Assembly: GCA_002269645.1 (NCBI GenBank)
Contig: NIVC01002322.1
Coordinates: forward strand, 120,137-184,136
Source of the DNA: Macrostomum lignano
Lineage: Eukaryota
Direction of reading: 5' to 3'
Length of the DNA stretch: 64,000 nt
The notes beneath the pieces were generated by a model. That model ran no database searches, was not told the DNA's origin, and worked only from the letters and a program-made list of their open reading frames with translations. The translations under genes and the position numbers were made by a program. Below are positions 15,040-63,757 of the stretch, piece after piece; the first letter of the stretch is position 1, and every line of letters begins with the position of its first letter.

Positions 15040-15830
<791 letters not shown>

Positions 15831-33821: not shown

Positions 33822-34159
33822 GCGCACATACATCTGCATGCTCGAGTTCACCCTGCAGTGCCTTGGCGATTTTTGGGAGATCCGAGCTGAGTCTTCGTCC
33901 GTCCAACTCCTCTTCCTCCTTCTAATTACTTTAGCAGCCTTGAATCGGGCCCAAATACCTGATGGGAATGTTGAGATTCGGCGAAGGGTCCAGAAGCACC
34001 TCTTGAGCGAAACCTTGCTCAGGATACGCAGTCCCCGGACCAAAGTTTTTGCGGGTGGGCTGATCCACTTGGAGATCTCATCGATCCTTATGCGTGTCCA
34101 ACTGTCTCTGCCGGGCGCCCGTGCATCAGTTTGTTGCTGCTGGACTGCACTTCTGCGTG

Positions 34160-35945
34160 TCTGCCTGTCTGTCTGTGTCTGTCCCAGTGTCTGTCTCAGT
34201 GTCTGTCCCAGTGTCTGTCTCAGTGTCTGTCCCAGTGTCTGTCCCAGTGTCTGTCCCAGTGTCTGTCCCAGTGTCTGTCTCAGTGTCTGTCTCAGTGCCT
34301 TTCCCTGTGTCTGTCTCAGTGTCTGTCCCAGTGTCTGTCTCAGTGTCTGTCCCAGTGTCTGTCCCAGTGTCTGTCTCAGTGTCTGTCCCAGTGTCTGTCC
34401 CAGTGTCTGTCCCAGTGTCTGTCCCAGTGTCTGTCTCAGTGTCTGTCTCAGTGCCTTTCCCTGTGTCTGTCTCAGTGTCTGTCCCAGTGTCTGTCTCAGT
34501 GTCTGTCCCAGTGTCTGTCCCAGTGTCTGTCCCAGTGTCTGTCCCAGTGTCTGTCCCAGTGTCTGTCCCAGTGTCTGTCTCAGTGTCTGTCCCAGTGTCT
34601 GTCCCAGTGTCTGTCCCAGTGTCTGTCCCAGTGTCTGTCTCAGTGTCTGTCTCAGTGCCTTTCCCTGTGTCTGTCTCAGTGTCTGTCCCAGTGTCTGTCT
34701 CAGTGTCTGTCCCAGTGTCTGTCCCAGTGTCTGTCCCAGTGTCTGTCCCAGTGTCTGTCTCAGTGTCTGTCCCAGTGTCTGTCCCAGTGTCTGTCCCAGT
34801 GTCTGTCCCAGTGTCTGTCTCAGTGTCTGTCTCAGTGCCTTTCCCTGTGTCTGTCTCAGTGTCTGTCCCAGTGTCTGTCTCAGTGTCTGTCCCAGTGTCT
34901 GTCCCAGTGTCTGTCTCAGTGTCTGTCCCAGTGTCTGTCCCAGTGTCTGTCCCAGTGTCTGTCCCAGTGTCTGTCTCAGTGTCTGTCTCAGTGCCTTTCC
35001 CTGTGTCTGTCTCAGTGTCTGTCCCAGTGTCTGTCTCAGTGTCTGTCCCAGTGTCTGTCCAGTGTCTGTCCCAGTGTCTGTCCCAGTGTCTGTCTCAGTG
35101 TCTGTCCCAGTGTCTGTCCCAGTGTCTGTCCCAGTGTCTGTCCCAGTGTCTGTCCCAGTGTCTGTCTCAGTGTCTGTCCCAGTGTCTGTCTCAGTGTCTG
35201 TCCCAGTGCCTGTCCCAGTGTCTGTCTCAGTGTCTGTCCCAGTGTCTGTCCCAGTGTCTGTCCCAGTGCCTGTCCCAGTGTCTGTCTCAGTGTCTGTCCC
35301 AGTGTCTGTCTCAGTGTCTGTCCCAGTGCCTGTCCCAGTGTCTGTCTCAGTGTCTGTCCCAGTGTCTGTCCCAGTGTCTGTCTCAGTGTCTGTCTCAGTG
35401 TCTGTCCCAGTGTCTGTCTCAGTGTCTGTCCCAGTGCCTGTCCCAGTGTCTGTCTCAGTGTCTGTCCCAGTGTCTGTCCCAGTGTCTGTCCCAGTGTCTG
35501 TCCCAGTGTCTGTCTCAGTGTCTGTCCCAGTGTCTGTCCCAGTGTCTGTCCCAGTGTCTGTCTCAGTGCCTGTCTCAGTGTCTGTCCCAGTGTCTGTACC
35601 AGTGTCTGTCTCAGTGCCTGTCCCAGTGTCTGTCTCAGTGTCTGTCCCAGTGTCTGTCTCAGTGTCTGTCCCAGTGTCTGTCCCAGTGTCTGTCCCAGTG
35701 TCTGTCCCAGTGTCTGTACCAGTGTCTGTCTCAGTGTCTGTCCCAGTGTCTGTCTCAGTGTCTGTCTCAGTGCCTGTCTCAGTGCCTCAGTGTCTCAGTG
35801 CCTCAGTGTCTCAGTGCCTCAGTGCCTCAGTGTCTCAGTGTCTCAGTGCCTCAGTGTCTCAGTGCCTCAGTGTCTCAGTGCCTCAGTGTCTCAGTGTCTC
35901 AGTGCCTCAGTGTCTCAGTGTCTCAGTGCCTCAGTGTCTCAGTGT
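34160..35945. repeat. 12-bp satellite (gtgtctgtc[c/t]ca)n with recurrent cctttccct variant, grading into an 8-bp unit
   Basis: Direct reading; explains the 600-760-aa SVCP/SQCL ORFs. Confidence 0.97.
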
Positions 35946-52400: not shown

Positions 52401-52668
52401 AGTAGTATAGAAAAAGACGCTTCTAGACCCAGAGCACTTTTTTAATGACCGTTTTAAGGGTCTAGAGGGGGGACACGGGGGGTAAATAAAAAAACACATC
52501 TAAACACCCTTAACACATCTAATCACCCATAATCACCCCTAACAATAAAAATCACTTCCCAACACTTCCAAACACTCCCCAACACCCCCCTCGCGTCCCC
52601 CCTCTTAAGACCATAAAAACGGCCATTAAAATAAGGTCTGATCTAGAAGCGTCTTTTTCTATACTACT
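52401..52668. repeat. Inverted repeat: perfect 27-bp arms 52401-52427 / 52642-52668, extended imperfectly to ~85 bp, around a G-free loop
   Basis: agtagtatagaaaaagacgcttctaga is the exact reverse complement of tctagaagcgtctttttctatactact. Confidence 0.95.
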
Positions 52669-52753
52669 ACTCTATAACCCCTTGCCCGCGCCGCAGGCGC
52701 TAAGGGTCGGAAAGAATAGAAGCTATTTATAGTCAGTTCACCTACCCACCCAA

Positions 52754-52889: not shown

Positions 52890-53299
52890 ATGACACACGT
52901 TACACATATGCAAAATCTGAATGAATTGCAGGTAGGAGACCCAGTTGAATACCGAGGTGAGGGGCTTTTTGATGTGGTTGGAACAGCAGCAAATTTTGTT
53001 AAAGACAATATGGGGCTTATAGGGCAAGCTGGCTCCGCAGCAGGTTCTATAACAAATGCTGTAAAAGGAGGAATTGAAGCAGCTAGAGCGGCAGAAGAAC
53101 TAAAGAAATTGAGAGAATTTAACGATACCCTCTCACAGATAAAAGCAATAAAAGATTTGAAATTAGCACAGGAAGCAACCCAAGCCGCACAACCAACAGA
53201 AACCCCACGAAAAGCGCACCAATAAGTAATAAAGATATTCAGGATTTTAATAAAATGTTAAATACTATTAAAGGTGGAAAAGGATTAAAGAAATTTTAA
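52890..53299 (+). CDS. pVI-like virion precursor protein (amphipathic helix after GEG|; probable -1 frameshift near 53205 giving C-terminus ...IKGGKGLKKF)
   Basis: aaaaaATG start; YRGEG|LFDVVGTAANFVKDNM; VKGG; the -1 frame 53204-53299 reads PTKSAPISNKDIQDFNKMLNTIKGGKGLKKF*. Function is inferred. Confidence 0.6.
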
Positions 53300-53309
53300 C
53301 AATATAAAA

Positions 53310-54303
53310 ATGGGCTCAGTTAATGATGATGAAAACCGGTTATATTTTATAGGAGAAATTGTAGATACTTTAGATCTTGATGATAATAAGCAAACCCACA
53401 CAATGTTAAAAAGATTGGATCGATTAGGTAAAAAGTTTGACTACGACATCGATACATTTAAACTCGCAGCAAAATATGCACAAGAAGGAAGGCCAATATC
53501 CTTTAAGAATCGCGGCAGAAATTATAGGTTGACAGACTCTGATGTGAAATTTTTAATGGAGACTCACACTAAAAAGGACGGTGGATTACTACCCATTCTA
53601 CCGCTTCTTTTAGGGCTTGGCGCAGCTGGAGCAGTCGGTTTAGCCGGAAAAAGAATTCATGATAATGTAAAACAGCTAGGAGAGTTAAGAGCGAAACAGG
53701 GGGGAATCTTACCCCTTGCAGCTTTGCTCCCAATAATTTTTGCAGGAATTGGAGCAGCTGGAGGAGTTGCTGGCGGAGCAGCTGGAATTGCAAAAGCAGT
53801 AAATGACAAAAAAGCTGCGGACGAAAAAGCCAAACGAGATGCAGAATTTCAAAGACAGCAAATAACGCAGGACGCACAATTTAAACAAAAACTTATCGAT
53901 ACAATTAATAGTAGTTCAGCAACAGCTGAGCAAAAAAGAAATGCAGAAGCTAGGTTATCAGCTGGAAAAGGGTTAATACTAAAAGGATCAAATCATGGCA
54001 ATGGTTTACTTTTACAAGGAACAACCCAAGGAAGTGGAGTTGTCGCAGATAAACTACACGAATTTGGCCAAACTTTAGAAAAAACGGGTGAGAAAGCTAA
54101 AGGATTTTTTGACAATATTGGATCCAATTTTAGACCAGCAGTTCAGAAGATTTTACTAAATTAGGAAAAGATTTTAACATCATTGAAAAACATGATGGAA
54201 GCGGATTATATCTCGAAATGAGACCAAAAGCAGGTTCAGGAATTTTCTTAAATTCAAACGTTATGGCAATGGATTGCTATTACCAAAAGCAGATCTCGAA
54301 TAG
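53310..54303 (+). CDS. pX/mu-like polyprotein precursor with repeated GG|/GxG| motifs (intact to 54164, continued by -1 shifts)
   Basis: KDGG|LLPILPLLLGLGAAG and KQGG|ILPLAALLPIIFAGIGAAGG resemble the adenovirus pX tail MRGG|ILPLLIPLIAAAIGA; GKG|LIL, GNG|LLL, GSG|VV; downstream frames give GSG|LYL, GSG|IFL and GNG|LLL. Confidence 0.7.
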
Positions 54304-54387
54304 GCTCCTGGGGGTAGGGTCTGGACACCAAAAACGCAAAATTAAAAAATCAATAATTCAAACATTATATAAATTATATTCTATAAA

Positions 54388-57300
54388 ATGGAACAAAGAT
54401 TGACCCCAGATCAGATTCGACAACTTCTTGCAAATGAGCGCCAACAGTTCAATCGATTACAAAGACAGATTGAACAAATTGAACAGCGCCAAAGACAACA
54501 ACGCCGCCAAAGAGCAAGAGAAAGACAGAGAGAAAGGCAGAGAGAAAGAGAAATACAAGACCAACAAATAAATGCATTAGCAAATAATATAAGGGCAGAA
54601 TATGAAATGAAGCGATTAATAGAAAAGGCTGAATATGAAAAAAGAATAGCAGAATTAGAAAAAAACCAAAAGAAACCCACACGTCGGAAACCTCGGAATA
54701 AATCGGATGAAAAACCATTAGATGAGTTTATTAGGGTTTATCGATTTGAACCAATGCAGAATGTCTTAGATTTTATTGAAACCCAGCTATCAAACGGATA
54801 TGCTGTTGAAATTACTAATGCGAGGGTACAATATTTTTATAATAAAACCGGAGATGATCGTGAAGAGATTAATCAATACTTAGCAACATTTTATAATATA
54901 AGTCAATTTCAAGCTTGGTTTAAGCATTTGGTAGAAAATTACGACATGAATTTAAGTGTGTTTTCTGGAAGACTTAAAATGACACCAAACGAAATTACAC
55001 TTAAACACGAAAGGTCAAAGCAGGGTATGGGAACAAATGTCATGTGTGAAATTGCAGAGTATAAAGATGAGTACTGTTACATACCTAGTGATGGAAATTG
55101 TTTCTATAAGTGTGTTCAGTTTATTTATGGTGATAAAGCCCCACGCAAAGACGAATATGGTGCTTGGTTGTACGACTCAAGAACTCAAAGAGGTTTAATG
55201 ACAAATTCAAGAATTGGAAGATTCAACGAACATTTTAATCTTAGTATAGGGCTGTACAACACCAAAAATCGTGGCATTGAACCAAAGTCTCAAAGAGGGA
55301 TTCACCACGATTGGTTATTAATAAATTACTTTCACACACCCGATTATCACATTGGTCATTATTGTCTTATATCAAATAAACAACGAGGAATCGCCCTCGA
55401 ACGGATAAAAGACAATTATAAAGTTGTATATAAAAACCCAACGCTCGAAAATGTTAAGGAGCTAAAAATGTTCAACACACCCACAAATCCCAATAAATCA
55501 AACGTATATATATTTGATTTTGAAACATATTTAAATTATAATCAACAAGCATGTCCGTATGCGGTTGGTCTTTTAAACTATAACGCCTTTTCTAATAAGT
55601 GTAATGAAACCCCAGAGCAAATAAAGAAACTAACTAAGATCTTGATATCAGATCGCGGTTGTGATTTTCAAACAGATGGAGATAAGGTTGACCGTGCCGA
55701 AGGTTCGCAACCAAAGGTTGATTGTGTTAGAAAAATGTTTAAATACCTTGGTACAGTTAGGTCAAAAAAGATTGTTTTGATCGCGCATAACTCATCCCGC
55801 TTCGATTCATACATACCACTATTTTGTAATATAAAACCAATTAAAATTCTCAAAACCCCAAGAGGAATATTATCAATAACTTTTGTAAACGATTACGCGT
55901 CAAAAGAGGTTAGCGCATTTATAAACAAAGATAAGAAGAAGAATCATAAGGATTCGAAACAAACCATTACGATGCTTTGTTCATATCAACATGCATCAAT
56001 GAGTTTAAAAAAGTTTTGCTCATCAATGACAATTAGAGAGGATTTGCGAAAGACCTCAATGGTTCACGACATTACCGAACACGACTATTTAGAGCGCATG
56101 GACGAATGGTATGAATATTTACAATTTGATCTTATTTCTTTATGCGCCTGTATTCATAAGTATAATGAAATAGCATATGAAATTGGAGGAATGACAATGT
56201 TCGATACTCTTACCTGTTCAAGTTTAACATTAAAATGTTGGTTTAAAGATTTTGTTAGAGTTGAAGACAAAATGAAACAATATCTAAAGACAGAAGAAAA
56301 AACTAATTACATTAAAAAAGTTGAAGAAATAATATCTCCGTTGAAAATAGAGGATTATTTTGACTTAAGCAAACTTGAAAAAGCAAAATACCAAACACTA
56401 TTAAGAAAAGAATTTTCAGTTCACTCTCATACCAATCCTTATATACGAAGGTTTATGCGGGACGCAGTCAAAGGAGGCAGGGTATTTGCACTAATAAATA
56501 AATATGAAAGCGACTGTTTTCAAACAATTGTAGACGTTGTAAAAGCCCATTTAAAAACACCAACAAGCGACCCATGCGAGGTTATATCATCTTATCTCAA
56601 AAGCGATATGGAAGAAAAAAAGAAAATCGCAATTAAACTAAAAAAGCAATTGGGTACCGTATCAGATTGTTTAATGAATTTTGATGGAGTTTCGTTGTAC
56701 CCATCTGCCATGTCTGATAAGGATAGTGAATATCCAAGAGCAGAAACAGCAAGAGTTTTTGATATAAGCGAGGAAAAAGATTTCTTGGCACAATTTAATT
56801 CACAAACCTTTCGACCAAAAACAGCGGTTTTAAAGATTATGTATGAGAATCCTAACACCGTTTTTCTTCAACATCTCCCATCGAAAGATAAAGAGAAATT
56901 TTATAATCCGGAAACAAAAGCAAACGAAACAAAAACATTAAATAGGTTTAGAAACGGAAAAGTAATTGACACCTTATGTTCCGTAGATATACAAGAAATT
57001 GTAAGAATGGGTGGAAAAATATTAAAGATATATAGTGGAATTGTATATGAAAAAAATTACGATTTCTCTCCGTTTCAGAATTATATTACAAATCTTTTTG
57101 AAATGAGAAAAGTATTTAAAAAAGAAAATAACGAGGCAGGTTCTGAATTGGTAAAAACACTATTAAATTCATTATATGGCAAAACAGTTCAAAGAGACAT
57201 TACTTTCACAACACATCTCTGGAATTTGCAAACATTAAAAACCGAATACGATGACACAATCAAATCATATGAGAAAATATGTGACGATTTATATTATGTT

Positions 57301-58008
57301 GAAAAAAATAAAGACACGCAAGAATATGTAGATGAGGAAGAGGAAAGCCCTATAACAAGCCTTTGTCCAGCACAATTAGGAATATTTATCTTAGCTCATT
57401 CAAGAAGGATCATGAATAATTTTATTACCTCTATAGAGGGCTCAAAGACTCCAGAAATTTATTACGGCGATACAGATTCGTTATATATACATAAAAAACA
57501 TTGGGACACATTAAATAAAAACGGGCACGTTGGAAATAACTTAAGTCAAGGAAAAAATGATTATGGAGAGGGTGGAATTATATTCGGTTATTTTATCGCT
57601 CCTAAAATTAAATATTGTCTTTTATTGAAAGACGATTTTATTATGGAAGAGAAAAAAACATTTAAAGGATGTGCAAACGATAAGATTAATTTTGCATCGT
57701 TTAAAACTTTATATGATGGACAGTCAATAAAAGTAAATAATAATGCTCCGTGGAAACGATCATTTGAAGGTGGTATAACAATTCCTCAAAGCGGATCAAC
57801 AATATCAAAAACATATAGCTCTACGATAAACACATTTAAAAGAGAAAAACCGGATAAAAACGGAGTTATGAAACCATTCTTTAAAAACTATTTTGATGAC
57901 AAACCACAGCATGAACAATCAATTGAATATTATAACAGTTTACTATTTGACGTTGACTATAATTGTTTTGAGTTCGATATTGATGAATTAGCACTTGAAA
58001 AAAACTAA
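54388..58008 (+). CDS. polB: Protein-primed family B DNA polymerase with N-terminal TP-like region and vOTU-like protease domain, 1206 aa, intact
   Basis: ExoI FDFET, ExoII HNSSRFD, ExoIII YLQFD; PolA DGVSLYPSAM, PolB KTLLNSLYGK, PolC YGDTDS, KxY in APKIKY; OTU-like IPSDGNCF...GHY. Confidence 0.96.
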   Translation: MEQRLTPDQIRQLLANERQQFNRLQRQIEQIEQRQRQQRRQRARERQRERQREREIQDQQINALANNIRAEYEMKRLIEKAEYEKRIAELEKNQKKPTRRKPRNKSDEKPLDEFIRVYRFEPMQNVLDFIETQLSNGYAVEITNARVQYFYNKTGDDREEINQYLATFYNISQFQAWFKHLVENYDMNLSVFSGRLKMTPNEITLKHERSKQGMGTNVMCEIAEYKDEYCYIPSDGNCFYKCVQFIYGDKAPRKDEYGAWLYDSRTQRGLMTNSRIGRFNEHFNLSIGLYNTKNRGIEPKSQRGIHHDWLLINYFHTPDYHIGHYCLISNKQRGIALERIKDNYKVVYKNPTLENVKELKMFNTPTNPNKSNVYIFDFETYLNYNQQACPYAVGLLNYNAFSNKCNETPEQIKKLTKILISDRGCDFQTDGDKVDRAEGSQPKVDCVRKMFKYLGTVRSKKIVLIAHNSSRFDSYIPLFCNIKPIKILKTPRGILSITFVNDYASKEVSAFINKDKKKNHKDSKQTITMLCSYQHASMSLKKFCSSMTIREDLRKTSMVHDITEHDYLERMDEWYEYLQFDLISLCACIHKYNEIAYEIGGMTMFDTLTCSSLTLKCWFKDFVRVEDKMKQYLKTEEKTNYIKKVEEIISPLKIEDYFDLSKLEKAKYQTLLRKEFSVHSHTNPYIRRFMRDAVKGGRVFALINKYESDCFQTIVDVVKAHLKTPTSDPCEVISSYLKSDMEEKKKIAIKLKKQLGTVSDCLMNFDGVSLYPSAMSDKDSEYPRAETARVFDISEEKDFLAQFNSQTFRPKTAVLKIMYENPNTVFLQHLPSKDKEKFYNPETKANETKTLNRFRNGKVIDTLCSVDIQEIVRMGGKILKIYSGIVYEKNYDFSPFQNYITNLFEMRKVFKKENNEAGSELVKTLLNSLYGKTVQRDITFTTHLWNLQTLKTEYDDTIKSYEKICDDLYYVEKNKDTQEYVDEEEESPITSLCPAQLGIFILAHSRRIMNNFITSIEGSKTPEIYYGDTDSLYIHKKHWDTLNKNGHVGNNLSQGKNDYGEGGIIFGYFIAPKIKYCLLLKDDFIMEEKKTFKGCANDKINFASFKTLYDGQSIKVNNNAPWKRSFEGGITIPQSGSTISKTYSSTINTFKREKPDKNGVMKPFFKNYFDDKPQHEQSIEYYNSLLFDVDYNCFEFDIDELALEKN

Positions 58009-60193: not shown

Positions 60194-62210
60194 TTATATT
60201 TGAGTAGGAGGTTTTTCCAAATAAGCAGTAGAGGGAAAAACATAACCAAACGACGTACTACCACATACAACTGCACCACGAATAAAATGTGCAGCATCCG
60301 ATCCTCCAGTTCGAGCACCAAAACCCATAAGGGTTCCAGATTTATCTAAAGTTCCCCAAGTTCCACTATCATATGTGAAAACGTTCTGCCCAATGAGGGT
60401 ATAAGAATCACCAGCAACATTGTATGTATGAATTATACCAAACCCTTTGATTTAAAATATTAATTCAAATAAATGCCAATCCGTTATCAATATTTGCATA
60501 GGCTAGTTTGATCCGCGTCAGTATTAACATCGCGCGGCTTGATCCGTCTGATTTTTTTACTCCAATACCAAATATCATGCCACTCACTTGCAAAAACTAT
60601 CAATCCGCGTCGGTTGATAATCCAGATCCAAATTCCGATGTTGGACGTTGGTGACAGTATGCATAAAACCAAACCGCATCTGCACCATCTCCTGTAGCAT
60701 TAGCAACTCGGAAAAAGAAAGACGCAGATATATTTTGAAAATGTGTGAAATTGAATTGTAAAGCACCACTTACTCCAGAAGTTTCACGAGTAATTCTAGC
60801 GCCGTTTTGATAATCGATATAAGAAGCGTCACCAATTAAAGAACCGACTGGATATATATCTCCGGCGGTTGTTGGATTTTGATATCCAGACCAATTACAA
60901 ATTACTGGTTCGAACAAGGCCGCATCAATAGCAGGTATTCCATCCAATTTATTTTTATCGCTTCCAGACATTCTACCATTTGATGTTGGAGTAGCTAGCT
61001 GATCTACGTACGCTCGCGAACTGCAGAAAGTATTTGAGTTGGCCAATTAAGATCTTGAATTTCAACACGGTGTTCAAATAATTGTATTTGACGAACCTCG
61101 ATAGGTTGTGTACCGGTACCACCAGTTGGGAAGAATACGCTATAATATTTCCAAAAATTAGTCGTTAAATTAGATAGAGCAAATGATGTTGCTTGAACTG
61201 GTGATCCGACGTAGTTAATGTCGTCCATGAATCGGTAGCAACATTTTTGCGCGAACCGACCACCCCGAGGGTATCTCAATTGTTTCACTGCCTGTAATTC
61301 TTAATTCAAATATTCTTCTATTATAACCTAAAAATTCAAATTGAATTTCCATATTGGTTGTGGTTCCGGTATTTGGTGACCATTGTGTCGCAAGGCTTCC
61401 ATCTCCAACTCGAAAAGCTGTGTTGCCATTTTCAGATGCTGTAAGAACAACATCAGGATTTGAAGTATTTGATGTAAGCGGCGTGGTAAAAATATCGGCG
61501 TCGGTTGCATTAGCTCGCTCGTTTACTTGGCCTAGAGTTATCGAGTCTGCGTTCTCTGTTCCAAATAATAAATTTGTTAATTTAAAATTATTCATATTAA
61601 TATTTCCACTACGAGTGGCAACTTGATTATCGACATAGTTCTTATCAACACTGAATCACTAGTTGTAATTGAAACATTTATAATTCGGTTGTTGCTCATA
61701 TCTAGGTTTCCGGTTGCGGTGGTTTGAACATAACGTGAATCAGAATCAGTTCGAGAATAAGAATCAGTTACATCTCTTTTTAAATTTAATCCATTATCAA
61801 CTTCGGTTTTGGTATAAGAATCGGCTACGTTCCGTTTCAAATTTAATGAATTATCAACTTCGGTTTTGGTATAAGAATCGGCTGTATTGCGTTTTAAATT
61901 TAATGAATTATCAACTTCGGTTTTGTATAAGAATCGGTATTGCGTTTTAAATTTAATGAATTATCAACTTCGGTTTTGGTATAGGAATCGGCTACGTTCC
62001 GTTTCAGATTTAGTGAATCATCTATTTGAGTTTTGGTATAGGAATCTGCAACATTTCTTTTTAAATTTATTTTTAGTATCAACTTCACTTTTTTTATAAC
62101 CTTCATCTTCATTAATATATCGATTATCTCCAAATGTAACACTTATTCCACCAGATGTACCACCACCACTACTTGTGTTCCGTTCCATGAGGGTGTTCAG
62201 AAAATAACAT
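60194..62210 (-). pseudogene. Fibre-like protein: 19-aa shaft repeats, NxxI-NL..D...YVD stalk motifs, F5/8C-like domain, phage-tail-fibre motif, L-type lectin head; multiple frameshifts
   Basis: About 6 copies of KRNVADSYTKTEVDNSLNL (57-nt DNA repeat); GNLDMSNNRIINV..KNYVD..GNINMNNFKLTNL; AFRVGDGSLATQWS..YYSV..VRQIQLF; ATPTSNGRMSGSDKNKLDGI; SFFFRV..GDGADAVWF...WH..ELIF...GFGARTGG..H.I; stop at 60194-60196. Confidence 0.75.
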
Positions 62211-62221
62211 TTTTTACTGTC

Positions 62222-62714
62222 TATTTTATAGAGTCTAAAATCGTGGCCATCGGCAATGCTTTGCATGATATTCTTAAATACTTCGGGGTTTTTCGAGTTA
62301 TTAATTTTATATAAAAAATACAACGCCGCTTGCCCGCAATAACTTTTATCAAATGTTTGAAACTGTTCGTGATGATCTCCACATAAACGATTTTAGTATG
62401 ATTAAATTTGTCTTTTATTTCCTGTAACGGAGAAGCGCGTATGAATCAAAAAAATAAACAAGTTTTGGTTTTGAATAAACTGCTGACAATGAACACCGTT
62501 TTCTTTTGTTGTTTCAATATTAACAATGAAAGATCCATATTGTGGTAAGTCTTTGATCTCATCTCGCATAACACATCTGAATGGTTTTATTTTAACTGCC
62601 TCGCCAATTTGTTAATTCGATATTGCTTGTTGTGTCGCTTCCATATCTTTGTTTAAAATCATCCACGTCATGTCATTTTTGTTTCCTGAAAAACTCATCC
62701 CACGTCATGGTCAT
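62222..62714 (-). pseudogene. Adenain/Ulp1-like maturation cysteine protease (PRO), frameshifted
   Basis: Reading across 1-nt shifts gives TSNIEL..IKPF.CVMRDE..LP, FIVNIETTKENGVH[W] (His 62489-62491), YFFDSY (Asp 62445-62447) and QFQTFDKSYCG (Cys 62336-62338). Both ends are approximate. Confidence 0.8.
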
Positions 62715-62911: not shown

Positions 62912-63688
62912 TTAAACCTGTTTTATACGTAAAATTATTGTTATTGACTGCCCACCAAAACTTATTAATCTATCGCTTTCATCTACAATCCTAATATAAA
63001 TTGATTGAACGCTATATTGATTTAAAGGATAATATATTGGGGTTTGGGGTGCAACAATCATTTTCTCTCCAATTGGAACAGCAAGAAATGGGATTGAATA
63101 AATAATTCCACGTTGAACCAAAACTCCGTTATCGTCTGTTATATAACCACCGTTTGAAATGTCGGTTGTTATATTAATTGTATTTACTCCACCCTCTATA
63201 TTTCCAACTGTATCACCGGTGCTTGATGTGGTAACTATTCGGGAATTAAATCCAAGTATGGTTCTGAGTGAATTTGCAATTGTGAAATCAACCTGATATC
63301 CGGATCCTAGTGATAGTGTGAATCTGCCAGACGGTAAATCAACACTATAACAATTGCTCCTGCTACCACCATTAGTTGTTAATTCTCCTTCTATATAAGC
63401 ATTCAAATCAGTATAGCTATACGCTCCTGGGTTAACGCTAAATGTTGTCCAATTGGCTCCGGAATCTTTAGAATATCTAAATTGATTATTTGTTGCATTA
63501 ATTAATTGAGGCATGTTGAAAACCGAAAATAGTAAACCTATTTGATAACTTAGGCTTTGATCAAGTTGTAATGGATCGCGCAATTGAATCCGTTGCTCGC
63601 TGGTTGTCATTATAAACTGTAATGTTGTACTAAATTTTGAATTAGTTCGATCTACCAATTGTTTTATAGTATTTAAATTTGTAGTCAT
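62912..63688 (-). CDS. Minor capsid protein (penton, single jelly-roll), 258 aa
   Basis: Polinton mCP pattern: NNQFRY..PGAY...LN..I, SLRTILGF, P.GEKMIVAPQTPIYYPL..SIYIRIVDESDRLISFGGQSITIILRIK. Confidence 0.88.
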   Translation of the reverse strand: MTTNLNTIKQLVDRTNSKFSTTLQFIMTTSEQRIQLRDPLQLDQSLSYQIGLLFSVFNMPQLINATNNQFRYSKDSGANWTTFSVNPGAYSYTDLNAYIEGELTTNGGSRSNCYSVDLPSGRFTLSLGSGYQVDFTIANSLRTILGFNSRIVTTSSTGDTVGNIEGGVNTINITTDISNGGYITDDNGVLVQRGIIYSIPFLAVPIGEKMIVAPQTPIYYPLNQYSVQSIYIRIVDESDRLISFGGQSITIILRIKQV

Positions 63689-63757
63689 TTTTTATAGTGG
63701 GAATTAATCGTACCGAAGTCGCGTGCTATGTCTCTTCTTCCTCATTATCTTCTTTTA

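What the first reader, a model, noticed from the sequence alone, without database searches (positions are those of the whole stretch)
53310..54360. Tandem adenovirus pX(mu)-like segments in a polyprotein studded with GxG| motifs
Seen: two hydrophobic segments following GG (53580 GG|LLPILPLLLGLGAAG; 53700 GG|ILPLAALLPIIFAGIGAAGG), and at least six GxG-[LIV] motifs once the -1-shifted frames are followed (GKG|LIL, GNG|LLL, GSG|VV, GSG|LYL, GSG|IFL, GNG|LLL). Established: HAdV pX ends MRGG|ILPLLIPLIAAAIGAVPG, and adenain cleaves after (M/I/L)xGG or (M/I/L)xGx. Inference: a precursor cut by the element's own protease into several short core or membrane-active peptides, a multi-peptide version of adenoviral mu.
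Basis: partly seen in the sequence, partly recalled or inferred. Interest (0 to 1): 0.75.

Follow-up and report, generated by a model that had tools for sequence, protein, structure and literature searches.

The report
Polinton precursor with doubled pX segment
A gene of an integrated Polinton (Maverick) virus encodes a probable inner virion protein with two copies of an adenovirus protein-X-like hydrophobic segment and a string of likely protease cut sites, a new variant of a protein class already noted in these elements that gives testable predictions for how their particles mature.

Summary
The motifs are real: two K-x-G-G-hydrophobic segments (53574, 53694) and six G-x-G-hydrophobic motifs (53964-54276) in a gene of a multicopy Polinton. 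The frameshifts are not programmed: 21 of 26 copies examined hold the motifs in one 319-340 aa frame (dN/dS 0.085), and the window copy is broken near 54150 and 54265. Both segments resemble the conserved C-terminal piece of adenovirus pre-mu (Pfam E 0.008, below cut-off; family profile's top PDB hit is pX), not the Arg-rich mature mu, which is absent. No site fits the adenain [MIL] P4 rule: P4 is Lys in 163 of 201 GG sites. The tail motif is family-wide (259 seen, 8 expected; spacing 9-12 aa) and also marks the upstream amphipathic gene, whose end resembles adenovirus pVIc. pX-like domains in adintoviruses and multi-site GG|X/GX|G processing in mavirus are published. The tandem pX segments, the Lys-P4 pattern and the pVIc-like end were not found in my searches. 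Cleavage and membrane activity are inferred, not shown. New variant of a known kind.

The parts
52401..52708 (.). left terminal inverted repeat of the Polinton, starting with an AGTAGT end motif
   Evidence: end motif; this stretch matches both ends of sister elements, and 3 of 5 sister pairs tested show 306-374 bp inverted ends
52890..53299 (+). upstream small gene (132-136 aa in sister copies; frame broken near 53200 here): G-x-G-LF motif, amphipathic helix, C-terminal G-K-G-L-K-K-F-stop. Cupiennin/PW-like by resemblance (labels from papers, not matched by a search); pVI-like layout inferred
   Evidence: (22 unbroken copies, dN/dS 0.113)
53310..54303 (+). pX-like precursor gene: 331 aa in most sister copies, broken here near 54150 and 54265 (main frame stops at 54164)
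53310..53573 (+). N-terminal domain (residues 1-88); its second half is shared with single-copy relatives; no Pfam match
53574..53663 (+). pX-like segment 1: K-D-G-G then a hydrophobic run; shortened duplicate of segment 2
   Evidence: 21 bits against an HMM of 159 single-copy segments; 0 of 2000 shuffles reach its score
53694..53825 (+). pX-like segment 2: K-Q-G-G then a hydrophobic, Gly/Ala-rich run; the family's conserved core
   Evidence: PF05829 E 0.0083; 9lr9_E PX top hit; 77 bits
53826..53963 (+). charged, probably helical linker
   Evidence: sequence; dN/dS 0.02 for residues 166-216; fold not predicted
53964..54044 (+). G-x-G-hydrophobic motifs 1-3, 11 residues apart
   Evidence: one whole unit is missing in 3 of 21 copies
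54045..54196 (+). amphipathic-helix region between motifs 3 and 4 (contains the first frame break of this copy)
   Evidence: hydrophobic moment 0.54-0.60 in 18-residue windows of the sister protein
54197..54303 (+). G-x-G-hydrophobic motifs 4-6, 11-12 residues apart, out of frame in this copy
54388..58008 (+). protein-primed family B DNA polymerase, 1206 aa, unbroken
   Evidence: PF03175 E 1.9e-18
62200..62640 (-). adenain/S273R-like (clan CE) protease gene, spread over several frames in this copy (ends approximate)
   Evidence: family alignment keeps His, Asp and Cys-Gly; 4 of 5 PDB hits are ASFV S273R or adenovirus proteases, E 0.012-1.3
62912..63691 (-). putative penton (minor capsid) gene; the contig ends at 64000, so ATPase, major capsid, PZ-like and integrase genes were seen only in sister copies
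   Evidence: the penton label rests on position and resemblance, with no Pfam match

Best explanation
The gene encodes an internal virion precursor of an animal-type Polinton (adintovirus), homologous in its hydrophobic segments to the C-terminal piece of adenovirus pre-mu (pX). After assembly the element's clan-CE cysteine protease most likely cuts it at K-x-G-G|hydrophobic (twice) and at G-x|G-hydrophobic (up to six times). That would free an N-terminal domain, two pieces that start with a hydrophobic pX-like helix (40 and 88 aa), a 56-aa amphipathic piece and five 10-12-aa G-hydrophobic peptides. The hydrophobic and amphipathic pieces are the likely membrane-active products for entry; the short peptides probably line the inner capsid, as adenovirus pVI and pVII propeptides do. 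Shown: sequence, copy structure, selection, homology, motif statistics. Inferred: packaging (about 0.8), cutting at the GG sites (about 0.8), cutting at most Gx|G sites (about 0.6), membrane activity (about 0.45).
For: Polinton context with protease, capsid, ATPase and integrase genes. pX homology: PF05829 E 0.0083; 14 of 27 family members hit it at E<=0.1, best 2.3e-5; a relative elsewhere in the genome passes the Pfam cut-off at 30.1 bits; adenovirus PX is the top PDB hit of the family profile, E 0.022. Purifying selection, dN/dS 0.085 over 21 copies, motif glycines invariant apart from one substitution and one lost unit. Tail motif in 130 of 171 homologous tails, 259 seen against 8.3 shuffled, while G-x-x-G controls are not enriched (4 against 7.1). 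The motif is concentrated in the three putative internal proteins: 9 seen, 1.4 expected in 679 aa, against 6 seen, 3.2 expected in the other 12 proteins (5211 aa), none in major capsid, penton or protease. Precedent: the mavirus protease cuts GG|X and GX|G at four tandem sites (PMC6048507, passages); adomavirus LO6, a pX/pVI-like protein, is found cleaved in virions (10.1101/341131, passages).
Against: No experimental cleavage, packaging or expression data. The Pfam score of this protein (16.4 bits) is under the cut-off of 25, and hydrophobic Gly-rich runs give chance hits (SseC scored higher). P4 departs from adenain's rule, and only 1 of the 6 GxG sites here has the Lys found in 114 of 294 family sites. 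Conservation of the tail motif is strongest after the second Gly (L/I-Y/F-L-x-P), which suits a binding motif as well as a cut site. Mavirus has GXG sites that were not cut. 41 of 171 tails lack the motif. Homologues were found by similarity to the query, which inflates the Lys-GG count.
Confidence: 0.65

Rival explanations
1. Only the GG sites are cut. The G-x-G-hydrophobic repeats are uncut docking motifs (short beta-strands) that tether the protein to capsomers or to the protease, and their number sets valency.
For: Strong conservation after the motif, L/I 87%, Y/F 79%, L 71%, P 52%; regular 9-12 aa spacing in 65 of 129 gaps; whole units gained or lost between copies; adenovirus pVI and pVII N-peptides bind the hexon cavity (PMC8156859, passages).
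Against: The strict G-x-G spacing with a small or polar x matches the clan-CE GX|G rule, and in adenovirus the hexon-binding peptides are themselves protease products, so binding and cutting are not exclusive.
Confidence: 0.2
2. An uncut membrane protein with two membrane-spanning helices (holin-like, or anchor of an internal membrane); the glycine motifs are turns.
For: Two 19-residue segments with hydropathy about 2.1; some 'Macc' classes are described with holin-like hydrophobic domains (PMC11071296, passage).
Against: Each segment begins exactly after K-x-G-G, as adenovirus pX's does after a proven cut site; GG is kept before every repeat in proteins with 3-4 segments; turns would not need the fixed P4 and P1' pattern.
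Confidence: 0.08
3. A multi-peptide version of mature mu that condenses the genome.
For: Homology to pX; three of the predicted pieces have a small net positive charge of +1 to +4.
Against: Mature mu is the basic middle piece of a protein with pI 12.9; here no 19-aa window has more than 4 Arg or 6 Lys+Arg, and the homology covers only the hydrophobic C-terminal piece.
Confidence: 0.05
4. The tail is reached by programmed -1 ribosomal frameshifts.
For: Two successive shifts in the window copy; slippery sites have been proposed for other adintovirus genes.
Against: 21 of 26 copies examined carry the tail in frame; the other broken copies L005, L009 and L016 end in different tails; the window element has 12 frame-changing indels in 4 of 5 genes compared.
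Confidence: 0.02

Closest known systems
Adenovirus pre-mu / pX (PF05829; PDB 9lr9_E)
   Same: G-G followed by a hydrophobic LP-rich, Gly/Ala-rich segment; encoded with a clan-CE protease and a double-jelly-roll capsid. This C-terminal region is the part conserved across adenovirus genera (PMC12517501, passages).
   Different: 331 aa against 80 aa; two segments against one; no Arg-rich mu; Lys instead of M/I/L at P4; a long tail of Gx|G repeats.
Adintovirus PLA2X and GasderminX ('Macc' class; Starrett 2021 PMC8502044, Welch 10.1101/341131, PMC11071296)
   Same: Polinton-encoded proteins with a pX-like domain, proposed as membrane-active core proteins. PLA2-bearing proteins (PF08398) are among the homologues and share the K-x-G-G segment and tail motifs.
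   Different: No PLA2 domain and no gasdermin Pfam match; the pX segment is doubled and central. In the passages read, those papers give no cleavage motif for Polinton proteins.
Mavirus virophage major capsid C-terminal domain (Born 2018, PMC6048507)
   Same: A run of GG|X and GX|G sites about a dozen residues apart, cut by the element's own clan-CE protease into short peptides.
   Different: There the cluster sits on the major capsid protein; here the major capsid protein has no such motif and the cluster sits on a separate pX-like protein.
Adomavirus LO6 and adenovirus pVI/pVIc
   Same: LO6 is described as a pVI/pX-like protein cleaved in virions. The upstream gene has a pVI-like layout and ends G-x|G-hydrophobic...Phe like pVIc, whose Gly1, Val2 and terminal Phe are the key residues (PMC4246237, passages).
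   Different: No sequence-level match to pVI was obtained; the end peptide would be 5 aa, without the Cys of pVIc.

Membership tests
Adenovirus pX (pre-mu), PF05829 | hydrophobic C-terminal segment after GG matching PF05829 | tested here: inconclusive
   E 0.0083, 16.4 bits against a cut-off of 25; a family member passes the cut-off; top PDB hit E 0.022
Adenovirus pX (pre-mu), PF05829 | Arg-rich middle peptide (mature mu) | tested here: not met
   at most 4 Arg in any 19-aa window
Adenovirus pX (pre-mu), PF05829 | canonical [MIL]xGG|x or [MIL]xGx|G sites flanking the pieces | tested here: not met
   none at the eight motifs; the only formal match lies inside segment 1; M/I/L at P4 in 0 of 201 family GG sites
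Adenovirus pX (pre-mu), PF05829 | packaged in the core and cut by the viral protease | not testable with these tools
   needs proteomics
Adintovirus PLA2X | parvovirus-type phospholipase A2 domain (PF08398) | tested here: not met
   no match at E<=1, although homologues carry it
Adintovirus GasderminX | gasdermin C-terminal-like domain before the pX segment | tested here: inconclusive
   no Pfam match; the HHpred search used in the paper and a fold prediction could not be run
Adintovirus pX-like membrane-active core proteins (Macc class) | pX-like segment in a gene of the virion module of an adenain-bearing Polinton | tested here: met
Polinton/Maverick | protein-primed PolB | tested here: met
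   PF03175 E 1.9e-18 in the window
Polinton/Maverick | rve integrase and A32-like packaging ATPase | tested here: met
   in a sister copy: rve E 2.7e-7, Pox_A32 E 9.7e-7; beyond the contig end for the window copy
Polinton/Maverick | double-jelly-roll major capsid protein | tested here: met
   sister-copy profile against a PF21738 protein, probability 99.8; no direct Pfam match
Polinton/Maverick | adenain-like cysteine protease | tested here: met
   His, Asp, Cys-Gly conserved; weak PDB hits to S273R and adenain; broken in the window copy
Polinton/Maverick | terminal inverted repeats | tested here: met
   3 of 5 sister pairs, 306-374 bp; the window's left end matches them. Target-site duplications were not examined.

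The most novel reading that the evidence does not exclude
Animal Polintons have their own maturation code: a protease that prefers Lys at P4 cuts three internal proteins (upstream pVI-like, pX-like, PZ-like) at K-x-G-G|hydrophobic and G-x|G-hydrophobic sites, releasing membrane-active helices, capsid-lining peptides and a C-terminal G-hydrophobic-x-x-Phe peptide that activates the protease like adenovirus pVIc. The pVI/pVIc switch and pX would then predate adenoviruses, and repeated duplication of the pX segment (2-4 copies, probably more than once) would raise the membrane-lytic dose in elements that lack the phospholipase.
Probability: 0.25. Interest if true: 0.72.

Novelty: new variant of a known kind. 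Interest (0 to 1): 0.45.

Why it matters
Polinton particles have not been observed (10.1101/2023.08.22.554363, passage), and I found no reported substrate for their protease. This family-wide motif set names candidate substrates, cut positions and a P4 preference that differs from adenain's, all testable with short peptides. It also suggests roles for small conserved Polinton genes still called uncharacterised (PMC8097293, passages) and links Polinton internal proteins to adenovirus pX and pVI. The window's own copy is a damaged example; the value lies in the family.

Tried and rejected
Programmed frameshifting: rejected. Pfam SseC (E 0.001, under cut-off) and T7_gp14 hits: treated as composition noise of Gly/Ala-rich helices. 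VPS13A, second PDB hit: not pursued, three weak pieces. Viral-contig scan: 255 pattern matches, none confirmed; the metagenome scan gave 5 loci, of which I read 2. Upstream protein: no homologue by word search, only sub-0.9 Atlas leads, no Pfam match; its relatives were recognised by position and eye and aligned, 4 sequences only. Atlas for the main protein: best 0.90, second cluster 20% Adeno_PX, low recognition score, a lead only. A single-sequence PDB search with the protease found nothing. The PZ-like assignment is weak (E 0.015). Expression: no RNA holder listed, and no reads were laid, so expression is open. No fold or complex prediction was available, so the helices and the capsid-binding idea are unmodelled. 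Earlier-findings look-ups were empty. No paper was found for PDB 9LR9. Whether the window's breaks are mutations or assembly errors is not settled: indels outnumber substitutions in the protease gene (7 against 6) and 4 of 12 lie in homopolymer runs. The tree (28 of 194 proteins) gives one strongly supported clade of 7 two-segment proteins; the placing of the 4 other multi-segment proteins is weak, so more than one origin is likely but not shown.

Full report
Observation. The main frame runs from ATG 53310 to a stop at 54164 (284 aa) and holds K-D-G-G (53574) and K-Q-G-G (53694), each followed by a hydrophobic run with a 19-residue hydropathy near 2.1, then three G-x-G-hydrophobic motifs (53964, 53997, 54030). 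Three more lie in two other frames (54197, 54233, 54265).

Context. The window is the end of a contig of a 764-Mb eukaryotic, probably animal, genome. From 52401 it holds a Polinton: terminal repeat, a small gene, the gene in question, a protein-primed polymerase (PF03175) and, on the other strand, a broken protease and a putative penton. Sister copies add the ATPase and integrase, a major capsid protein (profile match 99.8 to a PF21738 protein) and 306-374 bp inverted ends in 3 of 5 pairs tested. The protease family keeps His, Asp and Cys-Gly, and 4 of its 5 PDB hits are ASFV S273R or adenovirus proteases, at weak E-values of 0.012-1.3.

The frameshifts. The gene has at least 139 matches in the genome (137 of 584 candidates scored). 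Of 26 places examined (the 20 loci and six), 21 have one frame of 319-340 aa; 17 of these have six tail motifs and 4 have five, three of them through loss of a whole 11-aa unit. The window copy is broken near 54150 and 54265, and has 12 frame-changing indels in 4 of the 5 genes compared. So the shifts are decay or assembly error, not recoding. Pairwise dN/dS over the 21 unbroken copies is 0.085 (0.02-0.17 by region); the pairs are not independent and broken copies were left out.

Homology. Segment 2 hits Pfam Adeno_PX at E 0.0083, under the cut-off, and a spurious-looking SseC hit scores higher. The case rests on the family: 51 and 178 homologues; 14 of 27 aligned members hit Adeno_PX; another gene in this genome passes the cut-off; and the family profile ranks adenovirus PX first among 177,635 PDB sequences (E 0.022, residues 48-77 of 80). 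Segment 1 is a shortened duplicate (21 bits against an HMM of 159 single-copy segments; no shuffle of 2000 reaches it). Eleven of 196 proteins scanned have 2-4 segments; seven, this one included, form one strongly supported clade. The matched region is the piece after the last cut of pre-mu (cuts at residues 32 and 51; PMC8156859, passages), the part conserved in all adenovirus genera (PMC12517501, passages). The Arg-rich mature mu has no counterpart here, so 'multi-peptide mu' is the wrong name.

The sites. Canonical adenain sites are [MIL]xGG|x and [MIL]xGx|G. None of the eight motifs fits. In the family, P4 of the GG site is Lys in 163 of 201 and M/I/L in none; for the GxG motif it is Lys in 114 of 294 against a 12% background. 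The first count is inflated because homologues were found through this segment; the second much less so, since the query has Lys there once in six. In 171 tails the motif occurs 259 times against 8.3 by shuffling, G-x-x-G controls are not enriched, x is mostly Ser, Asn, Lys, Glu or Asp, and spacing clusters at 9-12 residues; 41 tails lack it. Among 15 proteins of this element family it is concentrated in three putative internal proteins (9 seen, 1.4 expected) and absent from major capsid, penton and protease, though six single motifs occur in the other twelve (3.2 expected). The mavirus protease cuts GG|X and GX|G at four tandem sites but leaves two other GXG sites uncut (PMC6048507, passages).

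Mechanism. Best reading (0.65): an internal virion precursor cut after assembly into two pieces led by hydrophobic pX-like helices, one amphipathic piece and several 10-12-aa peptides, serving membrane penetration and capsid lining. The main rival (0.2) keeps the GG cuts but treats the repeats as uncut docking motifs, which the strong conservation after the motif favours. An uncut two-helix membrane protein (0.08), a DNA-condensing mu polyprotein (0.05) and programmed frameshifting (0.02) are weaker. No fold, complex model or expression data were obtained, so none of these bears on the ranking.

The neighbour. The upstream gene (dN/dS 0.113 over 22 copies) has an invariant G-E-G-L-F before an amphipathic helix and ends G-K-G-L-K-K-F. 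Three other elements end the matching gene with G-x-G-hydrophobic-x-x-Phe. Adenovirus pVIc is released by a Gx|G cut and depends on Gly1, Val2 and its final Phe (PMC4246237, passages). The likeness is of layout only; no search linked the protein to pVI.

What is known. Starrett 2021 (PMC8502044, passages) reports pX-like domains in adintovirus PLA2X and GasderminX and a cupiennin-like gene; 'cleav' does not occur in its main text. Welch (10.1101/341131, passages) shows the adomavirus pX/pVI-like LO6 cleaved in virions. PMC11071296 (passages) names the class Macc. PMC8097293 (passages) calls pz and pw uncharacterised. Also searched by passage without a relevant motif description: PMC11071308, PMC11131425, 10.1101/2023.08.22.554363 and 10.1101/2025.02.07.637071. 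Searches showed no description of tandem pX segments, a Lys-P4 pattern or a pVIc-like end in Polintons. That is limited evidence: subscription papers are not held, and the Starrett supplement was cut before its sequence files, with its slide files unreadable. The labels PW, PZ and cupiennin for genes here are my assignments by resemblance, partly recalled, not search results.

Verdict. A real, selected feature of a known class of Polinton proteins, with a doubled pX-like segment and an extended set of probable cut sites. New variant of a known kind; interest 0.45, higher if the Lys-P4 code and a pVIc-like cofactor prove true.

Noticed in passing
window 52890-53299; L047:3948-4439; L043:1659-1970; L042:5133-5504: The small upstream gene ends in G-x-G-hydrophobic-x-x-Phe-stop in all four elements aligned and has an N-proximal Gly motif before an amphipathic helix: a pVI/pVIc-like layout.
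   Followed up: partly
L031:4930-5598 (-); L043:4621-5364; L042:6189-7079: A PZ-like protein also carries one G-x-G-hydrophobic motif just before its C-terminal piece.
   Followed up: partly
window 54388-58008 against L030:3454-7410, L022, L026, L028: Near-identical capsid modules carry two unrelated polymerases: the window type (PF03175) and a type with an endonuclease-VII/HNH-like domain. Such pPolB swaps are published for nematode Polintons.
   Followed up: partly
L045-L051: A second Polinton family in the same genome (protease 59-64% identical) has a 150-aa single-segment pX-like protein with two tail motifs.
   Followed up: partly
L048:8276-8719: A third pX-like gene next to an integrase-like ORF passes the Pfam Adeno_PX cut-off (30.1 bits) but has no tail motif of the strict kind.
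   Followed up: no
proteins P0058, P0075, P0097, P0102; P0006, P0009-P0012, P0014: Other family members hold 3-4 pX segments, or a short GG-led amphipathic unit before the main segment.
   Followed up: partly
proteins P0018, P0041, P0168, P0178: Database proteins that join the pX-like protein to the protease; real fusions or frameshifted read-throughs were not told apart.
   Followed up: no
window 60200-62250 (-): A fibre-like gene with 19-aa (57-bp) tandem repeats, split over several frames in this copy.
   Followed up: no
window 1-51000: The host flank is rich in satellites and simple repeats, such as a 12-bp array at about 34000-35900 with an inverted relative at about 15300-15800; long ORFs there are repeat artefacts.
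   Followed up: no
G000 contigs: Many contigs end inside these elements, as this window does, which suggests the family breaks the assembly.
   Followed up: no
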